64,000 bases of DNA. Source: Escherichia coli (lineage in GTDB: Bacteria; Pseudomonadota; Gammaproteobacteria; Enterobacterales; Enterobacteriaceae). The notes beneath the pieces are model-generated. The model did not search any database. It worked only from the letters and a program-made list of their open reading frames with translations, and was not told where the DNA came from. Shown one piece after another: positions 4,975 to 54,700 of the stretch. How positions within the stretch are numbered: position 1 is the stretch's first letter; the number at the start of each line of letters is the position of its first letter. Location: NCBI RefSeq assembly GCF_003018255.1, contig NZ_CP027440.1, one strand, 5' to 3'. A program made the position numbers and the translations under genes.

Positions 4975-5605
4975 AGGTGAGGCTGTGTTTGTTGTGTTCG
5001 TTGCCGTTTTTTGCCTGATGCGACGCTAACGCGTCTTATCAGACCTACAAGTCCCGAGCACAGAACCGTAGGCCGGATAAGGCGTTCACGCCGCATCCGG
5101 CATTCAGTGCCTGATGCGACGCTGACGCGTCTTATCAGGCCTACAAGATCCGAGCACAGAACCGTAGGACGGATAAGGCGTTCACGCCGCATCCGGCATT
5201 CAGTGCCTGATGCGACGCTGACGCGTCTTATCAGGCCTACAAGATCCGAGCACAGAACCGTAGGACGGATAAGGCGTTCACGCCGCATCCGGCATTCAGT
5301 GCCTGATGCGACGCTGACGCGTCTTATCAGGCCTACAAGACCCGAGCACAGAGCCGTAGGACGGATAAGGCGTTTTACGCCGCATCCGGCATTCAGTGCC
5401 TGATGCGACGCTGACGCGTCTTATCAGGCCTACAAGATCCGAGCACAGAACCGTAGGCCGGATAAGGCGTTCACGCCGCATCCGGCATTCAGTGCCTGAT
5501 GCGACGCTGGCGCGTCTTATCAGGCCTACAAGATCCAAGCCCAGCCCCCCAGGACGGATAAGGCGTTTTACGCCGCATCCGGCAACCGTTGCCGGAACCG
5601 AAAAC
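4975..5605. repeat. REP/BIME array, about six tandem ~98-bp units of paired inverted REP elements
   Basis: Motif gcctgatgcgacgctgacgcgtcttatcaggcctacaag...ggataaggcgttcacgccgcatccggc recurs at ~5004, 5110, 5208, 5300, 5398, 5494. Confidence 0.9.
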
Positions 5606-9911: not shown

Positions 9912-9999
9912 ATCGTTACCCTTTTTCAGGCAATAGTTGGCCCTGACCGAAGCGGCCAATTTTGTTTTTGTCGTTATTTACATCGCGGTTTCGCATTCA

Positions 10000-24527: not shown

Positions 24528-24539
24528 CACGCTACCGCC
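24528..24539 (-). promoter_or_regulatory. ops element (GGCGGTAGCGTG) within the JUMPstart sequence of the cps leader; RfaH-dependent antitermination site
   Basis: Plus strand reads cacgctaccgcc, the reverse complement of the ops consensus, about 180 nt upstream of wza start in the long leader. Confidence 0.8.
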
Positions 24540-24787
24540 CCTGGCTTTTTAGCTACCAATACACTGATTTAGCTTAATTTTTAAAACCCTCTCAACATAC
24601 AGTCGTTGATGAGAAAGGGTTATTGCGGAAATTAACTTCCGAATATAAGGTGACATTATGGTAATTGAATATTGGCTCTCCAATAATGCAGGAGGAAGTG
24701 TTACAGCTAACGGAATAGCAGGCAAGGTAACAATTCGGCAATTGGCTATTTTTAAGAATTATATTAAGTGTCATTCAATATGGTTTT

Positions 24788-36616: not shown

Positions 36617-38566
36617 TCAGCAACGGCTTAAATCAGCCTGCGCCTGAGCCAGTTTTTCTGCCGCCTGACGTAGCGGTTCCATCAACGGCATGGTCCGTGC
36701 TGGAGCATGAAGGCGGAATCGCTGCAACTCTGTCGCACCGACATTCAGCGCCGATTCCAGCCGATGTCGTTTGGCGGCCATTTTTGCCATTACCGCTTGT
36801 CTGTCTGCAGGCGTTACCGCTTCGTTCGGCCTGAACACAAAACGGCGTTCACAGCTCGCTTTCCAGTCGATAACCGCCTGGGTCAGATGATCACCAAAAC
36901 CTTTCACTTGCTTAACGCTCCGTCGGGTAACATCCGCTGCTGTTTCAATACCAAAGGACCGTAACGCCGCTTTACGCGCAGGGCCAACGCCGGGAATAGA
37001 GGCAACATCAATAAAAAATCCCTCCAGAAACTTCTGCTTCTGCCGTTCCCTTGCGGTGTCCTGAAGTGCTGCCAGATCGCGCTTTTCTTCTTCCGGTAAC
37101 CCAAGAATTTCGTCCTTCATTTTTTCGAGCATCGTCCGTTTGGCGATAAAACCTTCCAGCCCGCCCAACTGCTGGATCTGGCTGACTAAATGGTCATAGT
37201 CCATTTTCGCGCGATTAAACGCCTCACGGCGTTGCTGGATTTCTGCTTTGTACGCTTTGCTTGTCAGGCTGCCAATAATCCAGATAGCCGCCAGCACAGG
37301 AACCAAAATAATATAACGTGGTTCTGTCTGAAGGCCGCAAAGCAGCAGCGATAACGCTGACAGTGCGATCTCAATCAGAATGATGTATTCACGCCTTAAC
37401 AGGCCTAAAGGAAGCGGCCTGCCAGTCGGTTGGAAATGATCGGGTAATGGTAATTGCAATGCTGGCGGTGCTACTGACGCCATCACCATCGCCCAGACTT
37501 TCGCCAGCACAAAATCACCGCTGGTGGTAATGACCTCTTCGCCGAGATCAATAAAATAGATAACGCCTTGATTATCCAGAGCACACCACGGGCAGTCAGC
37601 CAAATGACCGGGATAAACATGCATTGCCGAAACGGTACATTTCTTTAACTGTTGGCGTAGTAAATCAAGTGCCGCTACCCACGCTTTTGCCGTCGGACGC
37701 CCGGTTGCCACGCCACTTTCCGTGAATGCCTGCTGAAACATGGCTTCAACATCGCCCGGTAACATCGACAGCGGAATAGATCGTGGCGGCGGTTTTAAAC
37801 CACGTCGCTGATTATCTGACGCGTAGGCATAACGGAAATGGGCAATATCCGTCTCCAGTGCATTACCCGCATCAGAGACAAGCGGTACACCGGAATAAGG
37901 ATGCCGCCCACCAAACAAGACGTGAAAAATCAGCAACGCAAGGCCAAAATTATCGTGATTCGCGGTGCGTTCAAAGCCGACAAATGATGGCAAGGTTTGT
38001 TGCTCTGGCGGCGTAAAATGCGACACGCCGACTTCGCATAAATGCAGCGTGCCATTGGCGTTAATCTGAAAGGAGTCGCTATCAATCAACACCACTTTGC
38101 TGTCGCGACCTACCATAAAGCTGTTCTGGTTTACGTCACCCACGACGTGCCCGTGCTCGTGAATCGTAGCAAAAGATGAAGCAATATTGCGCGCAACATA
38201 GAGTAGAAAATCCCACGCACAATGAGGGTAACGTTGACGACGATGTGCCGGGCTATAGATCATATGAATCGGTTCTTTACCAGAAACTTTTGGCATCATA
38301 AAACCGATTACTTTTCCGCCTCGTCCACCGTGAAGCGTTGCCTGCGGCCAGGCGACATAATTCAACAACTGCGCGTCAGCTGTCGCAGCCATAAAGGCAA
38401 GTTTGTCCTGTTTTAAGGCGGGTGGCGGCGTGTGATAAATCTTGGCGACGCTATCGACAAACTCCTCGATATCATAAACCGCGCCTTCACCGCCTTTGCC
38501 CAGTTCACAGCCTGGCGTAACGCACTCACCAGTAGCAGTATATAAAGTGGGTTTCATGGTAACCAC
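36617..38566 (-). CDS. yegI: protein kinase-like protein YegI
   Basis: 649 aa ORF; kinase-like catalytic stretch (HGHVVGDVNQNSFMV, LIDSDSF), central TM segment, C-terminal helix-hairpin-helix-like region; overlaps yegK by 13 bp. Confidence 0.8.
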   Translation of the reverse strand: MVTMKPTLYTATGECVTPGCELGKGGEGAVYDIEEFVDSVAKIYHTPPPALKQDKLAFMAATADAQLLNYVAWPQATLHGGRGGKVIGFMMPKVSGKEPIHMIYSPAHRRQRYPHCAWDFLLYVARNIASSFATIHEHGHVVGDVNQNSFMVGRDSKVVLIDSDSFQINANGTLHLCEVGVSHFTPPEQQTLPSFVGFERTANHDNFGLALLIFHVLFGGRHPYSGVPLVSDAGNALETDIAHFRYAYASDNQRRGLKPPPRSIPLSMLPGDVEAMFQQAFTESGVATGRPTAKAWVAALDLLRQQLKKCTVSAMHVYPGHLADCPWCALDNQGVIYFIDLGEEVITTSGDFVLAKVWAMVMASVAPPALQLPLPDHFQPTGRPLPLGLLRREYIILIEIALSALSLLLCGLQTEPRYIILVPVLAAIWIIGSLTSKAYKAEIQQRREAFNRAKMDYDHLVSQIQQLGGLEGFIAKRTMLEKMKDEILGLPEEEKRDLAALQDTARERQKQKFLEGFFIDVASIPGVGPARKAALRSFGIETAADVTRRSVKQVKGFGDHLTQAVIDWKASCERRFVFRPNEAVTPADRQAVMAKMAAKRHRLESALNVGATELQRFRLHAPARTMPLMEPLRQAAEKLAQAQADLSRC

Positions 38567-39315
38567 AGCGCCAGTGCCAACGTTTTATCATCATCGGTAC
38601 GCTCGTTTACCGCCGGGCCGGACAAAAACTGCTTTAACAATTCAGGTAATAAATCGAGTTGTTCCTGCGTTGCTGACGCCAGCCCATTGAAAAACGGGGT
38701 AAAGAAAGGCACATGCGGAGAATTATCCAGCATATTTAACGCCAGCCGCTGGATACCATCCGTAAATGCTGCAACTTTGTGCGCACGCTCAGTGCTGGTG
38801 AAAGTTTCCAGTCTGGAAACGGCATCTTCATCGGTAATGAAGTGCGTCATATTGGTATATTCACCCACCATCGGCGTGAGCGGCAGTTGCAAACCGTGCC
38901 CCAAATCTACCACCACGCCGCCATCGCCAATCTGCATAATCAAGGTGCCATTAGCTGATGAAATCAATCCCAAAAACGTGCAGGCAAAATCGCGAACCGC
39001 TAATTCTTTGGCTTCCGCCTCGGCAAAAAGTCGCTGACGAATGGTCAGCACAATGTCCGTTGCGAGAACATCATTAAGCCCCAATTCCCCGCCCTGCACT
39101 TTTTGCGACATATAAGCCATCGCTTCATTGACGGCGAGCATCGCACCTTCGCCTCCCTGCGAGGCGCTACCTGCGCCATCAGCGACAAATACCGACAATA
39201 ATGGCTGCTGGTCATTTAACCAGGCAACCTGCATCTGGCAGGCATCCTGGCAAGGCAAGTCCGCGCTGATGTGCGACGTTCCAACGGTTGATGCATAGAC
39301 CAGACGCCAGCTCAC
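38554..39315 (-). CDS. yegK: PP2C-family Ser/Thr phosphatase YegK (PphC)
   Basis: 253 aa ORF with PP2C-like acidic metal-binding motifs (VADGAGS, FTDGI); 4-bp overlap with yegL. Confidence 0.8.
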
Positions 39316-39971
39316 ACTGACGTCCAGCCTTTTGGCGCTTCCAGCACAACTTCCGTTCCCGGCGTGGAGCGGGAAACCGAACGCAGCGAACTGGATAACC
39401 AGCTAAATAGTTCGCGGAATTGTAATCCTTGAAGAGGCAAAGGCTGACGAACGCTGATTTGGGCCAGCGTCTTCATATCCGCCCCCTGAACACCGATGGA
39501 AAAGAAGGCAAACTTCTTATCTTCTTCCCCCTGAAACACCTTGTTGGCAGCAGCCTGCCACTCATCGGTTGGTGCGCCATCGGTAATCAGGAAAATCCAC
39601 GGACGATAATAGGAAATACCATTGGCGCGATACTCACGTTTGCGCTCCTCAACCATATCCAGGGCTTTGGTAATGGCGGCCCCCATTGGTGTATCGCCCT
39701 GGGCAAACAGGATGGGCGGGAAAAAATTAGCGGCGCTGGTAAATGGTTGTTCCACATGCACCGGGCCGAACGTCACAATGCCGAGTTCCACTCTTTTTAA
39801 GGCCAGCGGATCGGCAAGCAGCTCATCGCGAAAGGTAACCAATCCGGCGTTAAGTTCATTAATAGGTCTACCGTTCATAGAACCAGAAACATCCAACAGC
39901 AAAATGCAGGGGCAACGTGGTTCCGGGTTACTGGCAAAATCGCTGGTGGCAAACGTGATTTGTTCGCTCAT
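39312..39971 (-). CDS. yegL: von Willebrand factor A domain protein YegL
   Basis: 219 aa ORF with MIDAS-like DxSxS motif (LLLDVSGSM). Confidence 0.8.
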
Positions 39972-40152
39972 AAGAAATCCTTTCTTAGAGAATTATTGAG
40001 GCCCGGTATCATACCGACTGCAACAATGAAATAAGAGCAAACGAAGAAACTTTCAGAATTAGGCCCGGCGGCGCAGAAAATTTTGCTATTCGCCTCGCAA
40101 GAACGGAGAGCCGTCGATTGACACTAAGGGCGGAGTGACATAATTTCAGGAG

Positions 40153-40298
40153 TGAGGGTTAGGGAGAGGTTTCCCCCTCCCCCTGGTGTTCTTAGTAAGC
40201 CTGGAAGCTAATCACTAAGAGTATCACCAGTATGATGACGTGCTTCATCATAACCCTTTCCTTATTAAAAGCCCTCTTCTCCGGGAGAGGGTTTCCCG
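40153..40298 (+). ncRNA. sib: Sib antitoxin sRNA, repeat unit 1 (antisense to ibs unit 1)
   Basis: -35 TTGACA (40118-40123), 17-bp spacer, -10 TAATTT (40141-40146); ends at hairpin ccctct...agaggg plus TTTCCCGTTT; ends approximate. Confidence 0.6.
40192..40251 (-). CDS. ibs: Ibs type I toxin peptide, unit 1 (MMKHVIILVILLVISFQAY)
   Basis: 19-codon hydrophobic ORF fully antisense to Sib unit 1; matches recalled Ibs family pattern MMK...LLVISFPAY. Confidence 0.7.
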   Translation of the reverse strand: MMKHVIILVILLVISFQAY

Positions 40299-40487
40299 TT
40301 TCAGCGTCCCGCTGAAATCGTCGGCTTACCTCCTTTCGCCCTGAATGCAGTCTATCGCTAACGCGTGAACAAAATAGTTTCCTCTGTGATTATTGCGTAA
40401 CGACTCGCAAAGAATATTTGCTGGCAGGATCGCAGACTACAAAGCCTGCGGATTGACAATCTTATCGTGAAGGCATAATTTCAGGAG

Positions 40488-40628
40488 TGAGGGTAGAGCG
40501 GGGTTTCCCCCGCCCTGGTAGTCTTAGTAAGCTGGCCAGCTAATAACTAAGAGCACCACGATGATGAGTAGCTTCATCATGACCCTTTCCTTATTTAAGG
40601 CCCCTTCCTCGGGAGGGGCTTTCCCGTT
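40488..40628 (+). ncRNA. sib: Sib antitoxin sRNA, repeat unit 2
   Basis: -35 TTGACA (40453-40458), 17-bp spacer, -10 TAATTT (40476-40481); terminator gccccttcctcgggaggggc plus T-tract. Confidence 0.6.
40524..40580 (-). CDS. ibs: Ibs type I toxin peptide, unit 2 (MMKLLIIVVLLVISWPAY)
   Basis: 18-codon hydrophobic ORF antisense to Sib unit 2. Confidence 0.7.
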   Translation of the reverse strand: MMKLLIIVVLLVISWPAY

Positions 40629-40815
40629 TCAGCGTCCCGCTGAAATCGGCGGCCTACCTCCTTTCGCCATGCAAGCAGTCTATCGCTAACTTGCAGATAA
40701 AATAGTTTCACATGTGATTATTGCGTAACGTCTCGCAAAGAATATTTGCTGGCAGGATCGCAGACTACAAAGCCTGCGGATTGACAATCTAATTGTGAAG
40801 GCATACTTTCAGGAG

Positions 40816-40956
40816 TGAGGGTAGAGCGGGGTTTCCCCCGCCCTGGTAGTCTTAGTAAGCCGGGAAGCTTATGACTAAGAGCACCACGATGATGATCCAC
40901 TTCATCATGACCCTTTCCTTATTTAAGGCCCCTTCCTCGGGAGGGGCTTTCCCGTT
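40816..40956 (+). ncRNA. sib: Sib antitoxin sRNA, repeat unit 3
   Basis: -35 TTGACA (40781-40786), weaker -10 TACTTT (40804-40809); same terminator hairpin as unit 2. Confidence 0.55.
40852..40908 (-). CDS. ibs: Ibs type I toxin peptide, unit 3 (MMKWIIIVVLLVISFPAY)
   Basis: 18-codon hydrophobic ORF antisense to Sib unit 3. Confidence 0.7.
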   Translation of the reverse strand: MMKWIIIVVLLVISFPAY

Positions 40957-41143
40957 TCAGCGTCCCGCTGAAATCATCGGCTTACCTCCTTTCGCCCTGA
41001 ATGCAGTCTATCGCTGACTTGCGGATAAAATAGTTTCACATGTGATTATTGCGTGACGTCTCGCAAAGAATATTTGCTGGCAGGATCGCAGACTGCAAAG
41101 CCTGCGGATTGACAATCGGACCGTGAAGGCATACTTTCAGGAG

Positions 41144-41287
41144 TGAGGGTAGAGCGGGGTTTCCCCCGCCCTGGTAGTCTTAGTAAGCTGGGTAGCTAAC
41201 GACTAAGAGCACCACGATGATGAGTATCTTCATCATGACCCTTTCCTTATTTAAGGCCCCTTCCTCGGGAGGGGCTTGCCCGTTTCA
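41144..41287 (+). ncRNA. sib: Sib antitoxin sRNA, repeat unit 4
   Basis: -35 TTGACA (41109-41114), -10 TACTTT (41132-41137); terminator hairpin followed by an interrupted T-tract (cttgcccgtttc). Confidence 0.5.
41180..41236 (-). CDS. ibs: Ibs type I toxin peptide, unit 4 (MMKILIIVVLLVVSYPAY)
   Basis: 18-codon hydrophobic ORF antisense to Sib unit 4. Confidence 0.7.
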   Translation of the reverse strand: MMKILIIVVLLVVSYPAY

Positions 41288-41443
41288 GCGTCCCGCTGAA
41301 ATCGTCGGCCTACCTCCTTTTGCCCTGAATGCAGTCTATCGCTAACGCGTAGATAAAATAGTTTCCTGTGTTATTACTGGATGGGTGCTCGCAAATGTGC
41401 CCGCCATTCAGACGATTCCCGATAGTGTTTCATAATTCCTCCA

Positions 41444-41461
41444 TTTTTCTCCCTGATTGGC
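41444..41461 (+). promoter_or_regulatory. BaeR box upstream of mdtA
   Basis: tttttctccctgattggc matches recalled BaeR consensus TTTTTCTCCATDATTGGC at 16 of 18 positions, about 55 bp upstream of the mdtA start. Confidence 0.65.
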
Positions 41462-41514
41462 TGGCTACACTAGTATCATTCCGCGAATCGTTTCAGGAAG
41501 AGAAACTCTTAACG

Positions 41515-42762
41515 ATGAAAAGCAGTTATAAATCCCGTTGGGTAATGGTAATCGTGGTGGTTATCGCCGCCATCGCCGCATTCTGGTTCTGGCAAGGCCG
41601 CAATGACTCCCGGAGTGCAGCGCCAGGGGCGACGAAACAAGCGCAGCAATCGCCAGCGGGTGGTCGCCGTGGTATGCGTTCCGGCCCATTAGCCCCGGTT
41701 CAGGCGGCGACCGCCGTAGAACAGGCAGTTCCGCGTTACCTCACCGGGCTTGGCACCATTACCGCCGCTAATACTGTTACGGTGCGCAGCCGCGTGGACG
41801 GTCAACTGATGGCGTTGCATTTCCAGGAAGGCCAGCAGGTCAAAGCAGGCGATTTACTGGCAGAAATTGACCCCAGCCAGTTCAAAGTTGCATTAGCACA
41901 AGCCCAGGGCCAACTGGCAAAAGATAAAGCCACGCTTGCCAACGCCCGCCGTGACCTGGCGCGTTATCAACAACTGGTAAAAACCAATCTCGTATCTCGT
42001 CAGGAGCTGGATGCCCAACAGGCGCTGGTCAGTGAAACCGAAGGCACCATTAAGGCTGATGAAGCAAGCGTCGCCAGCGCGCAGCTGCAACTCGACTGGA
42101 GCCGCATCACCGCACCAGTCGATGGTCGCGTTGGTCTCAAGCAGGTTGATGTTGGTAACCAAATCTCCAGTGGTGATACCACCGGGATTGTGGTGATCAC
42201 CCAGACGCATCCTATCGATTTGCTCTTTACCCTGCCGGAAAGCGATATCGCTACCGTAGTGCAGGCGCAAAAAGCCGGAAAACCGCTGGTTGTTGAAGCC
42301 TGGGATCGCACCAATTCAAAGAAATTAAGTGAAGGCACGCTGTTAAGTCTCGATAACCAAATCGATGCCACTACCGGTACGATTAAAGTGAAAGCACGCT
42401 TCAATAATCAGGATGATGCGCTGTTTCCCAATCAGTTTGTTAACGCGCGCATGTTAGTCGACACAGAGCAAAACGCTGTGGTGATCCCAACAGCCGCCCT
42501 GCAAATGGGCAATGAAGGCCATTTTGTCTGGGTGCTGAATAGCGAAAACAAGGTCAGCAAACATCTGGTGACGCCGGGCATTCAGGACAGTCAGAAAGTG
42601 GTGATCCGCGCAGGTATTTCTGCGGGCGACCGCGTAGTGACAGACGGCATTGATCGCCTGACCGAAGGGGCGAAAGTGGAAGTAGTGGAAGCCCAGAGCG
42701 CCACCACTCCGGAAGAGAAAGCCACCAGCCGCGAATACGCGAAAAAAGGAGCACGCTCCTGA
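41515..42762 (+). CDS. mdtA: RND efflux membrane fusion protein MdtA
   Basis: ORF 41368-42762; start placed at [16 protein letters not shown] giving 415 aa. Confidence 0.9.
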
Positions 42763-54583: not shown

Positions 54584-54613
54584 GCTGCATTTATTAAGGT
54601 TATCATCCGTTTC

Positions 54614-54700
54614 GCTGAAAAACATAACCCATAAAATGCTAGCTGTACCAGGAACCACCTCCTTAGCCTGTGTAATCTCCCTTACACGGGCTTATTTTTT
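54614..54700 (+). ncRNA. cyaR: CyaR (RyeE) Hfq-dependent sRNA
   Basis: 87-nt sequence gctgaaaaacataacccataaaatgctagctgtaccaggaaccacctccttagcctgtgtaatctcccttacacgggcttatttttt matches recalled CyaR, including terminator hairpin and U-tail. Confidence 0.88.
54674..54700. other. bacteriophage P2 attB core (locI), unoccupied
   Basis: Reverse complement is AAAAAATAAGCCCGTGTAAGGGAGATT, the 27-bp P2 att core as I recall it; overlaps the CyaR terminator. Confidence 0.55.

What the first reader, a model, noticed from the sequence alone, without database searches (positions are those of the whole stretch)
40110..41300. Four tandem Sib/Ibs type I toxin-antitoxin units where K-12 has two
Four ~335-bp repeat units each carry a plus-strand Sib-like sRNA (promoter TTGACA-17-TAATTT or TACTTT, hairpin terminator) and a completely antisense 18-19 codon hydrophobic Ibs ORF. 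I recall only sibA/ibsA and sibB/ibsB at this yegL-mdtA locus in K-12, so this looks like a copy-number expansion. The array sits directly upstream of the BaeR-regulated mdtA promoter.
Basis: partly seen in the sequence, partly recalled or inferred. Interest (0 to 1): 0.5.

Follow-up and report, generated by a model that had tools for sequence, protein, structure and literature searches.

The report
Four-copy Sib/Ibs toxin-antitoxin array
The interval holds four intact tandem copies of the well-known E. coli Sib/Ibs small-RNA toxin-antitoxin module, a common and already annotated copy-number variant (about 1 in 9 complete E. coli genomes, including BL21), so it is real but ordinary.

Summary
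Four full-length Rfam SIB_RNA hits (137-150 bits, gathering score 56) lie on the + strand at 40118-41251. Each is fully antisense to an intact 18-19-codon hydrophobic Ibs ORF with a Shine-Dalgarno sequence. The repeat period is 335/328/328 bp, between yegL and mdtA. K-12 does have only two units.

This is not new. The window is 100% identical to strain 2014C-3338, where RefSeq already annotates all four Ibs genes. Flank-only BLAST counts over 5,426 complete E. coli genomes gave 2,308 with two units or fewer, 2,172 with three, 626 (11.5%) with four, 44 with a five-unit-sized gap, and about 272 larger or disrupted. BL21(DE3) has four units and O157:H7 has three.

Site tracing shows K-12's second unit is a single-crossover chimera of BL21 units 2 and 4. 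K-12 therefore looks like a two-unit deletion, rather than this strain being an expansion. The "weaker -10" of units 3 and 4 (CATACT) is identical to that of K-12 sibB, which is transcribed, so the decay reading is not supported.

Differences among units 2-4 cluster in the published target-recognition patch TRD1 and the P6 loop, while TRD2 is identical. Verdict: a known family and a known polymorphism, of low interest.

The parts
40118..40296 (+). Unit 1 sib gene (SibA type): -35 TTGACA at 40118-40123, -10 region CATAATTT at 40139-40146, transcript from about G40149-40152 to the terminator hairpin (about 40269-40293) plus U tail
   Evidence: Rfam SIB_RNA 149.5 bits at 40118-40266. Fold of 40150-40296 is -60.3 kcal/mol, z -5.2. 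The Sib segment is identical to EFF60 unit 1 and differs by 1 nt from K-12 sibA. +1G for sibA/sibB comes from PMC12956327; the exact G was not determined here.
40192..40251 (-). ibsA ORF, 19 aa MMKHVIILVILLVISFQAY plus stop, with SD AAGGAAAGGG upstream
   Evidence: Annotated as ibsA (WP_010723109.1) in the identical RefSeq record.
40453..40625 (+). Unit 2 sib gene (SibB-like): -35 at 40453-40458, -10 region CATAATTT, transcript about 40485-40625, terminator hairpin about 40597-40621
   Evidence: Rfam 141.0 bits at 40453-40595. Fold z -4.5. Mosaic of BL21 u2-type and u4-type sites plus private TRD1 changes.
40524..40580 (-). ibs ORF of unit 2, 18 aa MMKLLIIVVLLVISWPAY (IbsB with F15W)
   Evidence: WP_100249772.1 'Ibs family toxin'.
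40781..40953 (+). Unit 3 sib gene: -35 at 40781-40786, -10 region CATACTTT (same as K-12 sibB), transcript about 40813-40953, terminator about 40925-40949
   Evidence: Rfam 140.1 bits at 40781-40923. Fold z -4.8. The Sib segment is identical to O157:H7 unit 2.
40852..40908 (-). ibs ORF of unit 3, 18 aa MMKWIIIVVLLVISFPAY
   Evidence: WP_012767741.1, the same protein as in BL21 unit 3, O157 unit 2, EC6 unit 2 and AZ153 unit 2.
41109..41281 (+). Unit 4 sib gene: -35 at 41109-41114, -10 region CATACTTT, transcript about 41141-41281, terminator about 41254-41276, U-tract carries G at 41278
   Evidence: Rfam 137.0 bits at 41109-41251. Fold z -4.3. The T-to-G at 41278 is unique among the 25 units compared.
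41180..41236 (-). ibs ORF of unit 4, 18 aa MMKILIIVVLLVVSYPAY
   Evidence: WP_100249771.1.
40530..40552 (+). TRD1-equivalent patch of unit 2 (equivalents: 40198-40220 in unit 1, 40858-40880 in unit 3, 41186-41208 in unit 4); antisense to ibs codons 12-18; holds 6 of the 11 sites that differ among Sib 2-4
   Evidence: Mapped from the SibC +46..+68 probe sequence in Han 2010 Table 1 onto the unit alignment.
40568..40571 (+). P6-loop variable tetranucleotide of unit 2 (GTAG; TCCA at 40896-40899 in unit 3; GTAT at 41224-41227 in unit 4); antisense to ibs codons 4-5
   Evidence: The P6 loop contributes to TRD2 function according to PMC2943612.
40580..40596 (+). TRD2-equivalent segment of unit 2 (40908-40924 in unit 3, 41236-41252 in unit 4); antisense to the ibs start codon and SD; identical in units 2-4
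   Evidence: Mapped from the SibC +77..+99 probe and the +99..+115 definition. Invariance shown.
41282..41396 (.). Terminal partial spacer of the array; homology to the internal spacers fades between about 41365 and 41396
   Evidence: TRF array end at 41365; unit alignment.
41444..41461 (+). BaeR-box-like site TTTTTCTCCCTGATTGGC upstream of mdtA (context, not part of the array)
   Evidence: 1 mismatch, none in 100 shuffles. The consensus was recalled from memory (Nishino et al. 2005) and not verified in a paper here.
39312..39971 (-). yegL (vWA-domain protein), left flank
41515..42762 (+). mdtA, right flank

Best explanation
The interval is a four-unit tandem array of Sib/Ibs type I toxin-antitoxin modules. 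It is one common natural allele of the yegL-mdtA intergenic region of E. coli.

In each unit a roughly 140-nt Sib RNA is transcribed rightward from a TTGACA / CATA(A/C)T promoter and ends at a strong hairpin terminator. It is perfectly complementary to the leftward ibs mRNA across its ribosome-binding site and its whole 18-19-codon ORF. Pairing nucleates at TRD1 (inside the ORF) and TRD2 (at the translation initiation region). It blocks translation and exposes the duplex to RNase III, which keeps the membrane-toxic Ibs peptide off.

Copy number at this locus (1 to at least 5) changes through unequal crossing-over between the 328-bp repeats, and unit sequences are reshuffled by gene conversion. 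The K-12 two-unit state is most simply a two-unit deletion from a BL21-like four-unit array.

Shown here: the anatomy, family membership of the RNA, intact ORFs, the population frequencies, and the chimeric or mosaic structure of units. Inferred from the literature on K-12 SibA-E: transcription of all four Sib RNAs, toxicity of the peptides, and the repression mechanism. Also inferred: units 2-4 share an identical TRD2 and runs of at least 50 nt of perfect identity, so they probably cross-repress one another to some degree rather than being fully orthogonal.
For: Four full-length SIB_RNA hits at 137-150 bits, equal to K-12 SibA/SibB scores.

Four intact antisense Ibs ORFs with SD, all annotated as IbsA or Ibs-family toxins in the 100%-identical RefSeq record.

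A common fold and terminator in all four, z -4.3 to -5.2.

The -10 region of units 3-4 is identical to K-12 sibB, which is transcribed (PMC2943612). The TSS context TTTCAGGAGTG is invariant, with +1G reported for sibA/sibB (PMC12956327).

Population counts: two or fewer in 2,308 genomes, three in 2,172, four in 626, about five in 44, of 5,426 genomes. Verified examples with 1, 2, 3, 4 and 5 units.

K-12 unit 2 switches once from BL21-u2 type to BL21-u4 type between columns 120 and 147. Mosaic units occur in O157 and in the window. All four combinations of the codon-4/5 and codon-15 variants exist (LL+F, LL+Y, WI+F, WI+Y).

10 of the 11 sites that vary among Sib 2-4 lie in 27 of 149 nt, namely TRD1 plus the P6 loop (hypergeometric P about 8e-8, patches chosen partly post hoc). 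They include synonymous changes at ibs codons 12, 13, 16 and 17.

The mechanism and the TRD1/TRD2 roles come from PMC2943612 and PMC4147584. Strain-to-strain variation in Ibs number is already reported, with 7 in O157:H7 Sakai (PMC2887945).
Against: No expression data for this strain were available. The generic promoter and terminator scanner found none of the Sib promoters or terminators under its criteria: the -10 at 16-18 nt spacing scores below 4 of 6, and the U-tract is short. It would equally miss the K-12 genes.

No convincing sigma-70 promoter for the ibs mRNAs was found in the spacers.

Unit 4 has a T-to-G change in the already weak U-tract (41278).

The deletion direction for K-12 is a parsimony argument from nine strains, not a phylogenetic reconstruction. 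EC6 also has an IbsB unit in the terminal position.

The frequency classes are defined by gap length between flanks, so a small insertion could be misclassified. RefSeq complete genomes also over-represent clinical lineages.
Confidence: 0.9

Rival explanations
1. Some units, especially 3 and 4, are decaying, non-expressed copies: pseudo-modules left behind by duplication.
For: The -10 of units 3-4 reads CATACT/TACTTT rather than CATAAT/TAATTT. Unit 4 has a G in the terminator U-tract at 41278. The scanner finds no consensus promoter.
Against: K-12 sibB has exactly the same -10 and is a transcribed, functional antitoxin (PMC2943612). Rfam scores of units 3-4 (140.1 and 137.0) match K-12 SibB and the BL21 units. 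The folds, ORFs and SD are intact. The unit 3 Sib segment is identical in O157:H7, and its Ibs protein is shared by five strains from different lineages, which does not look like drift. An ibs gene that lost its Sib would be lethal if expressed, according to the literature.
Confidence: 0.06
2. The array is a recent, strain-specific tandem amplification of sibB/ibsB from a K-12-like two-unit ancestor.
For: K-12 has two units. Recent duplications do occur at this locus: AR Bank #0349 has two consecutive units encoding the identical Ibs protein.
Against: Units 2-4 of the window are not identical. They differ at 6-9 sites within Sib and are only 85-93% identical over the whole unit. Each has closer relatives in other strains than within its own array. 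626 complete genomes share the four-unit length. K-12 unit 2 carries the chimeric footprint of a deletion.
Confidence: 0.03
3. The four copies are an assembly artefact of a repeat.
For: Tandem 328-bp repeats can be mis-assembled from short reads.
Against: The units are distinguishable by sequence. The window is identical to a finished complete genome. Hundreds of independently assembled complete genomes have the same length class.
Confidence: 0.01

Closest known systems
sibA/ibsA and sibB/ibsB of E. coli K-12 (Fozo et al. 2008; Han et al. 2010, PMC2943612)
   Same: Same locus (yegL-mdtA), same orientation and same RNA family. Unit 1 differs from K-12 sibA by 1 nt in the Sib segment and encodes the identical IbsA. 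Unit 2 has the sibB-type promoter spacer and P6 loop, and its peptide is IbsB with one substitution (F15W).
   Different: The window has two further units, and its unit 2 has a different TRD1. K-12 unit 2 is joined directly to the terminal spacer.
Four-unit yegL-mdtA array of E. coli B strains (BL21(DE3), NC_012947.1)
   Same: Same number and order of unit types: IbsA, an IbsB-like unit, WP_012767741.1, then an IL/Y-type unit. All are annotated by PGAP.
   Different: The window's units 2 and 4 encode single-residue variants (WP_100249772.1 and WP_100249771.1). Overall identity across the interval is 96.0%.
sibD/ibsD-sibE/ibsE tandem pair and sibC/ibsC of K-12
   Same: Same family, the same complete antisense overlap, and the same tandem arrangement within one intergenic region.
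   Different: Different loci. SibC/D/E start with +1A and are NAD-capped, whereas sibA/sibB start with +1G (PMC12956327). All four window units share the sibA/B initiation context.
Other tandemly repeated chromosomal type I modules: ldr/rdl (LDR repeats) and zor/orz of O157:H7 (PMC2887945)
   Same: Small hydrophobic toxin plus antisense RNA, duplicated within one intergenic region, with copy number varying between strains.
   Different: Unrelated sequences. Those antitoxins overlap the 5' UTR rather than the entire ORF.

Membership tests
Sib antitoxin RNA (Rfam RF00113 SIB_RNA) | Sequence and structure match to the covariance model above the curated gathering score | tested here: met
   Four full-length hits (model positions 1-147) at 137-149.5 bits against a gathering score of 56. 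This is the same range as K-12 SibA/SibB.
Sib antitoxin RNA | About 140-nt RNA with a closing P1 stem, internal hairpins and a Rho-independent terminator hairpin | tested here: met
   All four fold alike at -60 to -64 kcal/mol, z -4.3 to -5.2, with an 10-11-bp terminator stem.
Sib antitoxin RNA | Constitutive transcription from its own promoter | not testable with these tools
   Promoter strings are conserved, and units 3-4 equal K-12 sibB. There are no expression data for this strain.
Ibs toxin (type I) | 18-19-aa hydrophobic peptide, MMK...(I/V)S(F/W/Y)(P/Q)AY, with its own SD | tested here: met
   Four ORFs found. They are annotated as IbsA or Ibs family toxin by PGAP in the identical record. 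The peptides are shorter than the 20-aa minimum of the HMM tools, so no independent HMM test was possible.
Ibs/Sib type I toxin-antitoxin module | The antitoxin RNA is encoded exactly opposite the toxin and spans its RBS and entire ORF | tested here: met
   Each ibs ORF and its SD lie inside the corresponding Sib match.
Ibs/Sib type I toxin-antitoxin module | Ibs overproduction is toxic and the cognate Sib represses it | not testable with these tools
   Known for the K-12 pairs (PMC2943612, PMC4147584). Inferred here from near-identity.
Ibs/Sib type I toxin-antitoxin module | Cognate-only recognition through variable TRD1 and TRD2 | tested here: inconclusive
   TRD1 and the P6 loop differ among units 2-4, but TRD2 proper is identical and perfect runs of at least 50 nt remain. 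Han 2010 shows that either TRD can suffice, so cross-repression among units 2-4 is plausible.

The most novel reading that the evidence does not exclude
The yegL-mdtA Sib/Ibs array may be a recombination-driven cassette locus. Unequal crossing-over would set copy number (1 to at least 5), while gene conversion shuffles two short RNA-recognition patches, TRD1 and the P6 loop. These patches vary, including at synonymous ibs sites, while the rest of Sib stays invariant. Each lineage would then carry its own repertoire of partly orthogonal toxin-antitoxin pairs that share a common TRD2 'safety' interaction. On this reading the patchwise variation reflects diversifying selection on RNA-RNA specificity rather than neutral drift, and K-12's two units are a reduced state.
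Probability: 0.3. Interest if true: 0.3.

Novelty: already known. Interest (0 to 1): 0.1.

Why it matters
It matters little as a discovery. The family, its mechanism, its tandem organisation and its strain-to-strain copy-number variation are all published, and the four genes are already annotated in RefSeq.

The practical value is as a caution. K-12 is not representative at this locus: about 57% of complete genomes have three or more units, including BL21(DE3). Work on Sib/Ibs function, or on ProQ-bound or NAD-capped Sib RNAs, in non-K-12 strains should expect extra, nearly identical paralogues that cross-hybridise and may cross-regulate.

The exact frequency table and the deletion footprint in K-12 are small new descriptive points.

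Tried and rejected
(1) The generic sigma-70 and terminator scan of 39950-41550 found none of the Sib promoters or terminators. I rejected this as evidence against function, because its spacing and U-tract criteria would equally exclude the experimentally validated K-12 sibA/sibB, which have the same strings.

(2) A relaxed minus-strand scan for an ibs promoter within 230 nt upstream of each ATG (at least 8 of 12 matches, 15-19 nt spacing) gave nothing consistent across units. The ibs promoter is therefore left unassigned.

(3) The founding paper (Fozo 2008, PMC2597788) is not held. I relied on Han 2010, Fozo 2010, Wen and Fozo 2014, and the 2026 sibD paper, which cite it.

(4) A first attempt at ORF extraction had a frame bug and too strict an anchor. 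It was redone.

(5) The copy-number estimate from a 60-row spread sample (9 four-unit, 21 three-unit, 23 two-unit) was superseded by exact counts from flank-only queries that exploit the tool's piece-joining distance.

(6) I considered and rejected an assembly artefact, a recent strain-specific amplification, and decaying copies (see the rival explanations).

(7) I did not scan metagenome or GTDB collections or predict structures. An 18-aa peptide from a known family did not justify the cost, and the peptides are below the 20-aa minimum of the HMM tools.
Full report
**What is there.** Reading 39700-41800 and scanning the whole window against Rfam gives four full-length SIB_RNA (RF00113) matches on the + strand:
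- 40118-40266, 149.5 bits
- 40453-40595, 141.0 bits
- 40781-40923, 140.1 bits
- 41109-41251, 137.0 bits

The gathering score is 56. Tandem Repeats Finder sees a single array at 40139-41365 with period 328 and 3.7 copies. Anchor-to-anchor distances are 335, 328 and 328 bp.

On the minus strand each Sib match encloses an ATGATG-initiated ORF of 19, 18, 18 and 18 codons, preceded by AAGGAAAGGG:
- MMKHVIILVILLVISFQAY
- MMKLLIIVVLLVISWPAY
- MMKWIIIVVLLVISFPAY
- MMKILIIVVLLVVSYPAY

The flanks are yegL (39312-39971, minus strand) and mdtA (41515-42762, plus strand). A BaeR-box-like site lies at 41444-41461 (the consensus was recalled from memory). All four Sib RNAs fold into the same architecture: a closing stem, three hairpins and a strong terminator, with z-scores of -4.3 to -5.2.

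One technical note. The Rfam model starts at the -35 hexamer and stops before the terminator, so its hit coordinates are shifted relative to the real transcript. The transcripts run approximately 40150-40296, 40485-40625, 40813-40953 and 41141-41281.

**Whose sequence it is, and what is annotated.** The interval is 100% identical to E. coli strain 2014C-3338 (NZ_CP027452.1). In that record PGAP already annotates ibsA plus three 'type I toxin-antitoxin system Ibs family toxin' genes at exactly these positions.

**How common four units are.** Rfam counts in other strains are:
- BL21-Gold(DE3): four
- O157:H7: three
- E7476: one
- AR Bank #0349: five

To get exact counts I used flank-only queries, with the left flank ending at 40105 joined directly to the right flank starting at 41400. 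Their lengths were chosen so that the search tool's joining rule (half the query length plus 500 nt) separates the array-length classes. The listed rows confirmed that the rule behaved as intended. The cumulative counts of genomes whose two flanks were joined, out of 5,426 complete E. coli genomes, were:

| Gap limit (nt) | Array size | Genomes joined |
|---|---|---|
| 800 | two units or fewer | 2,308 |
| 1,130 | three or fewer | 4,480 |
| 1,460 | four or fewer | 5,106 |
| 1,790 | five or fewer | 5,150 |

This gives the following distribution:

| Class | Genomes | Share |
|---|---|---|
| Two units or fewer | 2,308 | 42.5% |
| Three units | 2,172 | 40% |
| Four units | 626 | 11.5% |
| Five-unit-sized gap | 44 | 0.8% |
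| Larger or disrupted | about 272 | about 5% |

An example of a disrupted locus is the ISEc13 insertion in FDAARGOS_144. An independent 60-row spread sample agreed with these figures (9 four-unit, 21 three-unit, 23 two-unit).

The literature already records this variability. Fozo et al. 2010 count seven Ibs genes in O157:H7 Sakai against five in K-12, and they discuss lineage-specific duplications (PMC2887945).

**Expansion or deletion?** I compared 25 units from nine strains. The same Ibs proteins recur at different array positions:
- BL21: A, B, 741, 742
- O157: A, 741, 742
- K-12: A, B
- EC6: 742, 741, 901, B
- ST131-like AZ153: 901, 741

Tracing informative sites shows that K-12 unit 2 is BL21-unit-2 type at every diagnostic site from column 8 to 120. 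It is BL21-unit-4 type from column 147 onward, including four sites diagnostic for unit 4 that lie before the unique flank. One switch in a 27-nt invariant stretch is what a single unequal crossover deleting 656 bp would leave.

O157 and the window's own units are finer mosaics. For example, O157 unit 1 is SibA-type but carries a SibB-type terminator segment. All four combinations of the two variable peptide positions exist (LL/WI at residues 4-5 with F/Y at residue 15). So recombination between patches only about 30 nt apart has occurred, or else recurrent mutation.

The window's units 2-4 are not copies of one another. They are 85-93% identical over the whole unit, and each has a closer relative in another strain. 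The 'copy-number expansion' reading is therefore not the best description. K-12 more likely carries a reduced array. This remains a parsimony inference, not a phylogenetic reconstruction.

K-12 sibB has exactly this sequence, and SibB is one of the five transcribed Sib RNAs (PMC2943612). It is also studied as a cellular RNA in the ProQ and NAD-capping papers.

The initiation context TTTCAGGAGTG is invariant in all four units, and sibA/sibB are reported to start at G (PMC12956327). The ORFs, SD, folds and terminators are all intact.

The only blemish is a T-to-G change at 41278 in the short U-tract of unit 4, unique among the 25 units compared. I put the decay reading at about 6%.

**How it works.**
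- *Established for K-12 pairs.* Sib is constitutively made and overlaps the entire ibs RBS and ORF. Pairing starts at TRD1 (SibC +46..+68, within the ORF) or TRD2 (+99..+115, at the translation initiation region, helped by the P6 loop). Either domain suffices. Translation is blocked and RNase III processes the duplex (PMC2943612 and PMC4147584).
- *Shown here.* I used the probe sequences in Han 2010 Table 1 to place TRD1 at alignment columns 82-104 and TRD2 at columns 135-151. Among window units 2-4, 10 of the 11 variable positions inside the transcript fall in TRD1 or the P6 loop, which together cover 27 of 149 nt (hypergeometric P about 8e-8). The patches were partly chosen after looking at the data, so this P value is indicative only. 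Several of these changes are synonymous in ibs (codons 12, 13, 16, 17). That argues the constraint or selection acts on the RNA, as Han et al. proposed.
- *Inferred.* TRD2 proper is identical in units 2-4, and Sib 2-4 differ at only 6-9 of 141 positions, with perfect runs of 50-54 nt. Cross-repression among these three is therefore plausible, most of all between units 2 and 4, whose P6 loops differ by one base. This has not been tested.

**Comparison and verdict.** Every testable defining feature of the Sib/Ibs family is met. Toxicity, repression and expression cannot be tested with these tools. The arrangement matches the BL21 four-unit allele, apart from single-residue Ibs variants in units 2 and 4.

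Interest is low (0.1).

The most novel reading not excluded is that the locus is a recombination-driven cassette system under diversifying selection on the RNA recognition patches (probability about 0.3). Even that would be a modest extension of Han et al. 2010 and Fozo et al. 2010.

Noticed in passing
window 5071-5526 (+): Five tandem Rfam naRNA4 (RF02564, nucleoid-associated ncRNA 4 / CssrE) hits spaced about 96 nt apart, 69-82 bits against a gathering score of 59.5. This is a REP-type repeat cluster.
   Followed up: no
window 54612-54697 (+): Full-length CyaR/RyeE sRNA hit, 100.7 bits.
   Followed up: no
window 9916-9965 (-) and 24528-24566 (-): An algC RNA motif (77.3 bits) and a JUMPstart element (57.3 bits). 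They suggest polysaccharide (colanic acid / O-antigen) gene clusters upstream in the window.
   Followed up: no
window 40561-40689, 40871-41017, 41217-41345 (+): Plus-strand ORFs of 42-48 aa recur in units 2-4 (e.g. MMSSFIMTLSLFKAPSSGG...). They start in the palindromic P6 hairpin (ATGATGA...TCATCAT) and run through the Sib terminator. No SD is evident. They are most likely a by-product of the palindrome and of repeat conservation.
   Followed up: partly
window 41278: There is a G instead of T in the short U-tract after the unit 4 terminator (GGGGCTTGCCCG against GGGGCTTTCCCG). It is unique among the 25 units from nine strains compared. It could slightly weaken termination toward mdtA.
   Followed up: partly
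window 40118-41251 (Rfam hit coordinates): The Rfam SIB_RNA model begins at the -35 hexamer and ends before the terminator hairpin. Hit coordinates are therefore offset by about 30 nt at both ends from the mapped transcript.
   Followed up: yes
L010 3399-3783 (NZ_CP041996.1, AR Bank #0349): This is a five-unit array in which two consecutive units encode the identical Ibs protein (WP_100792650.1) and give equal Rfam scores. It is an apparently recent tandem duplication at the same locus.
   Followed up: partly
L004 unit 1 (O157:H7 strain 2149), alignment columns 154-187: A SibA-type unit carries a SibB-type terminator segment, which is a short gene-conversion tract. Its ibsA SD also reads AAGAAAAGGG instead of AAGGAAAGGG.
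   Followed up: partly
L011 2420-3793 (NZ_CP014111.1, FDAARGOS_144): An ISEc13 (IS4-like) element is inserted immediately beside ibsA within the array. This is one cause of the roughly 272 genomes whose flanks were not joined.
   Followed up: no
window 36617-39971 (-): The yegI (protein kinase), pphC/yegK (PP2C phosphatase) and yegL (vWA) genes, with overlapping stop and start codons, lie immediately left of the array.
   Followed up: no
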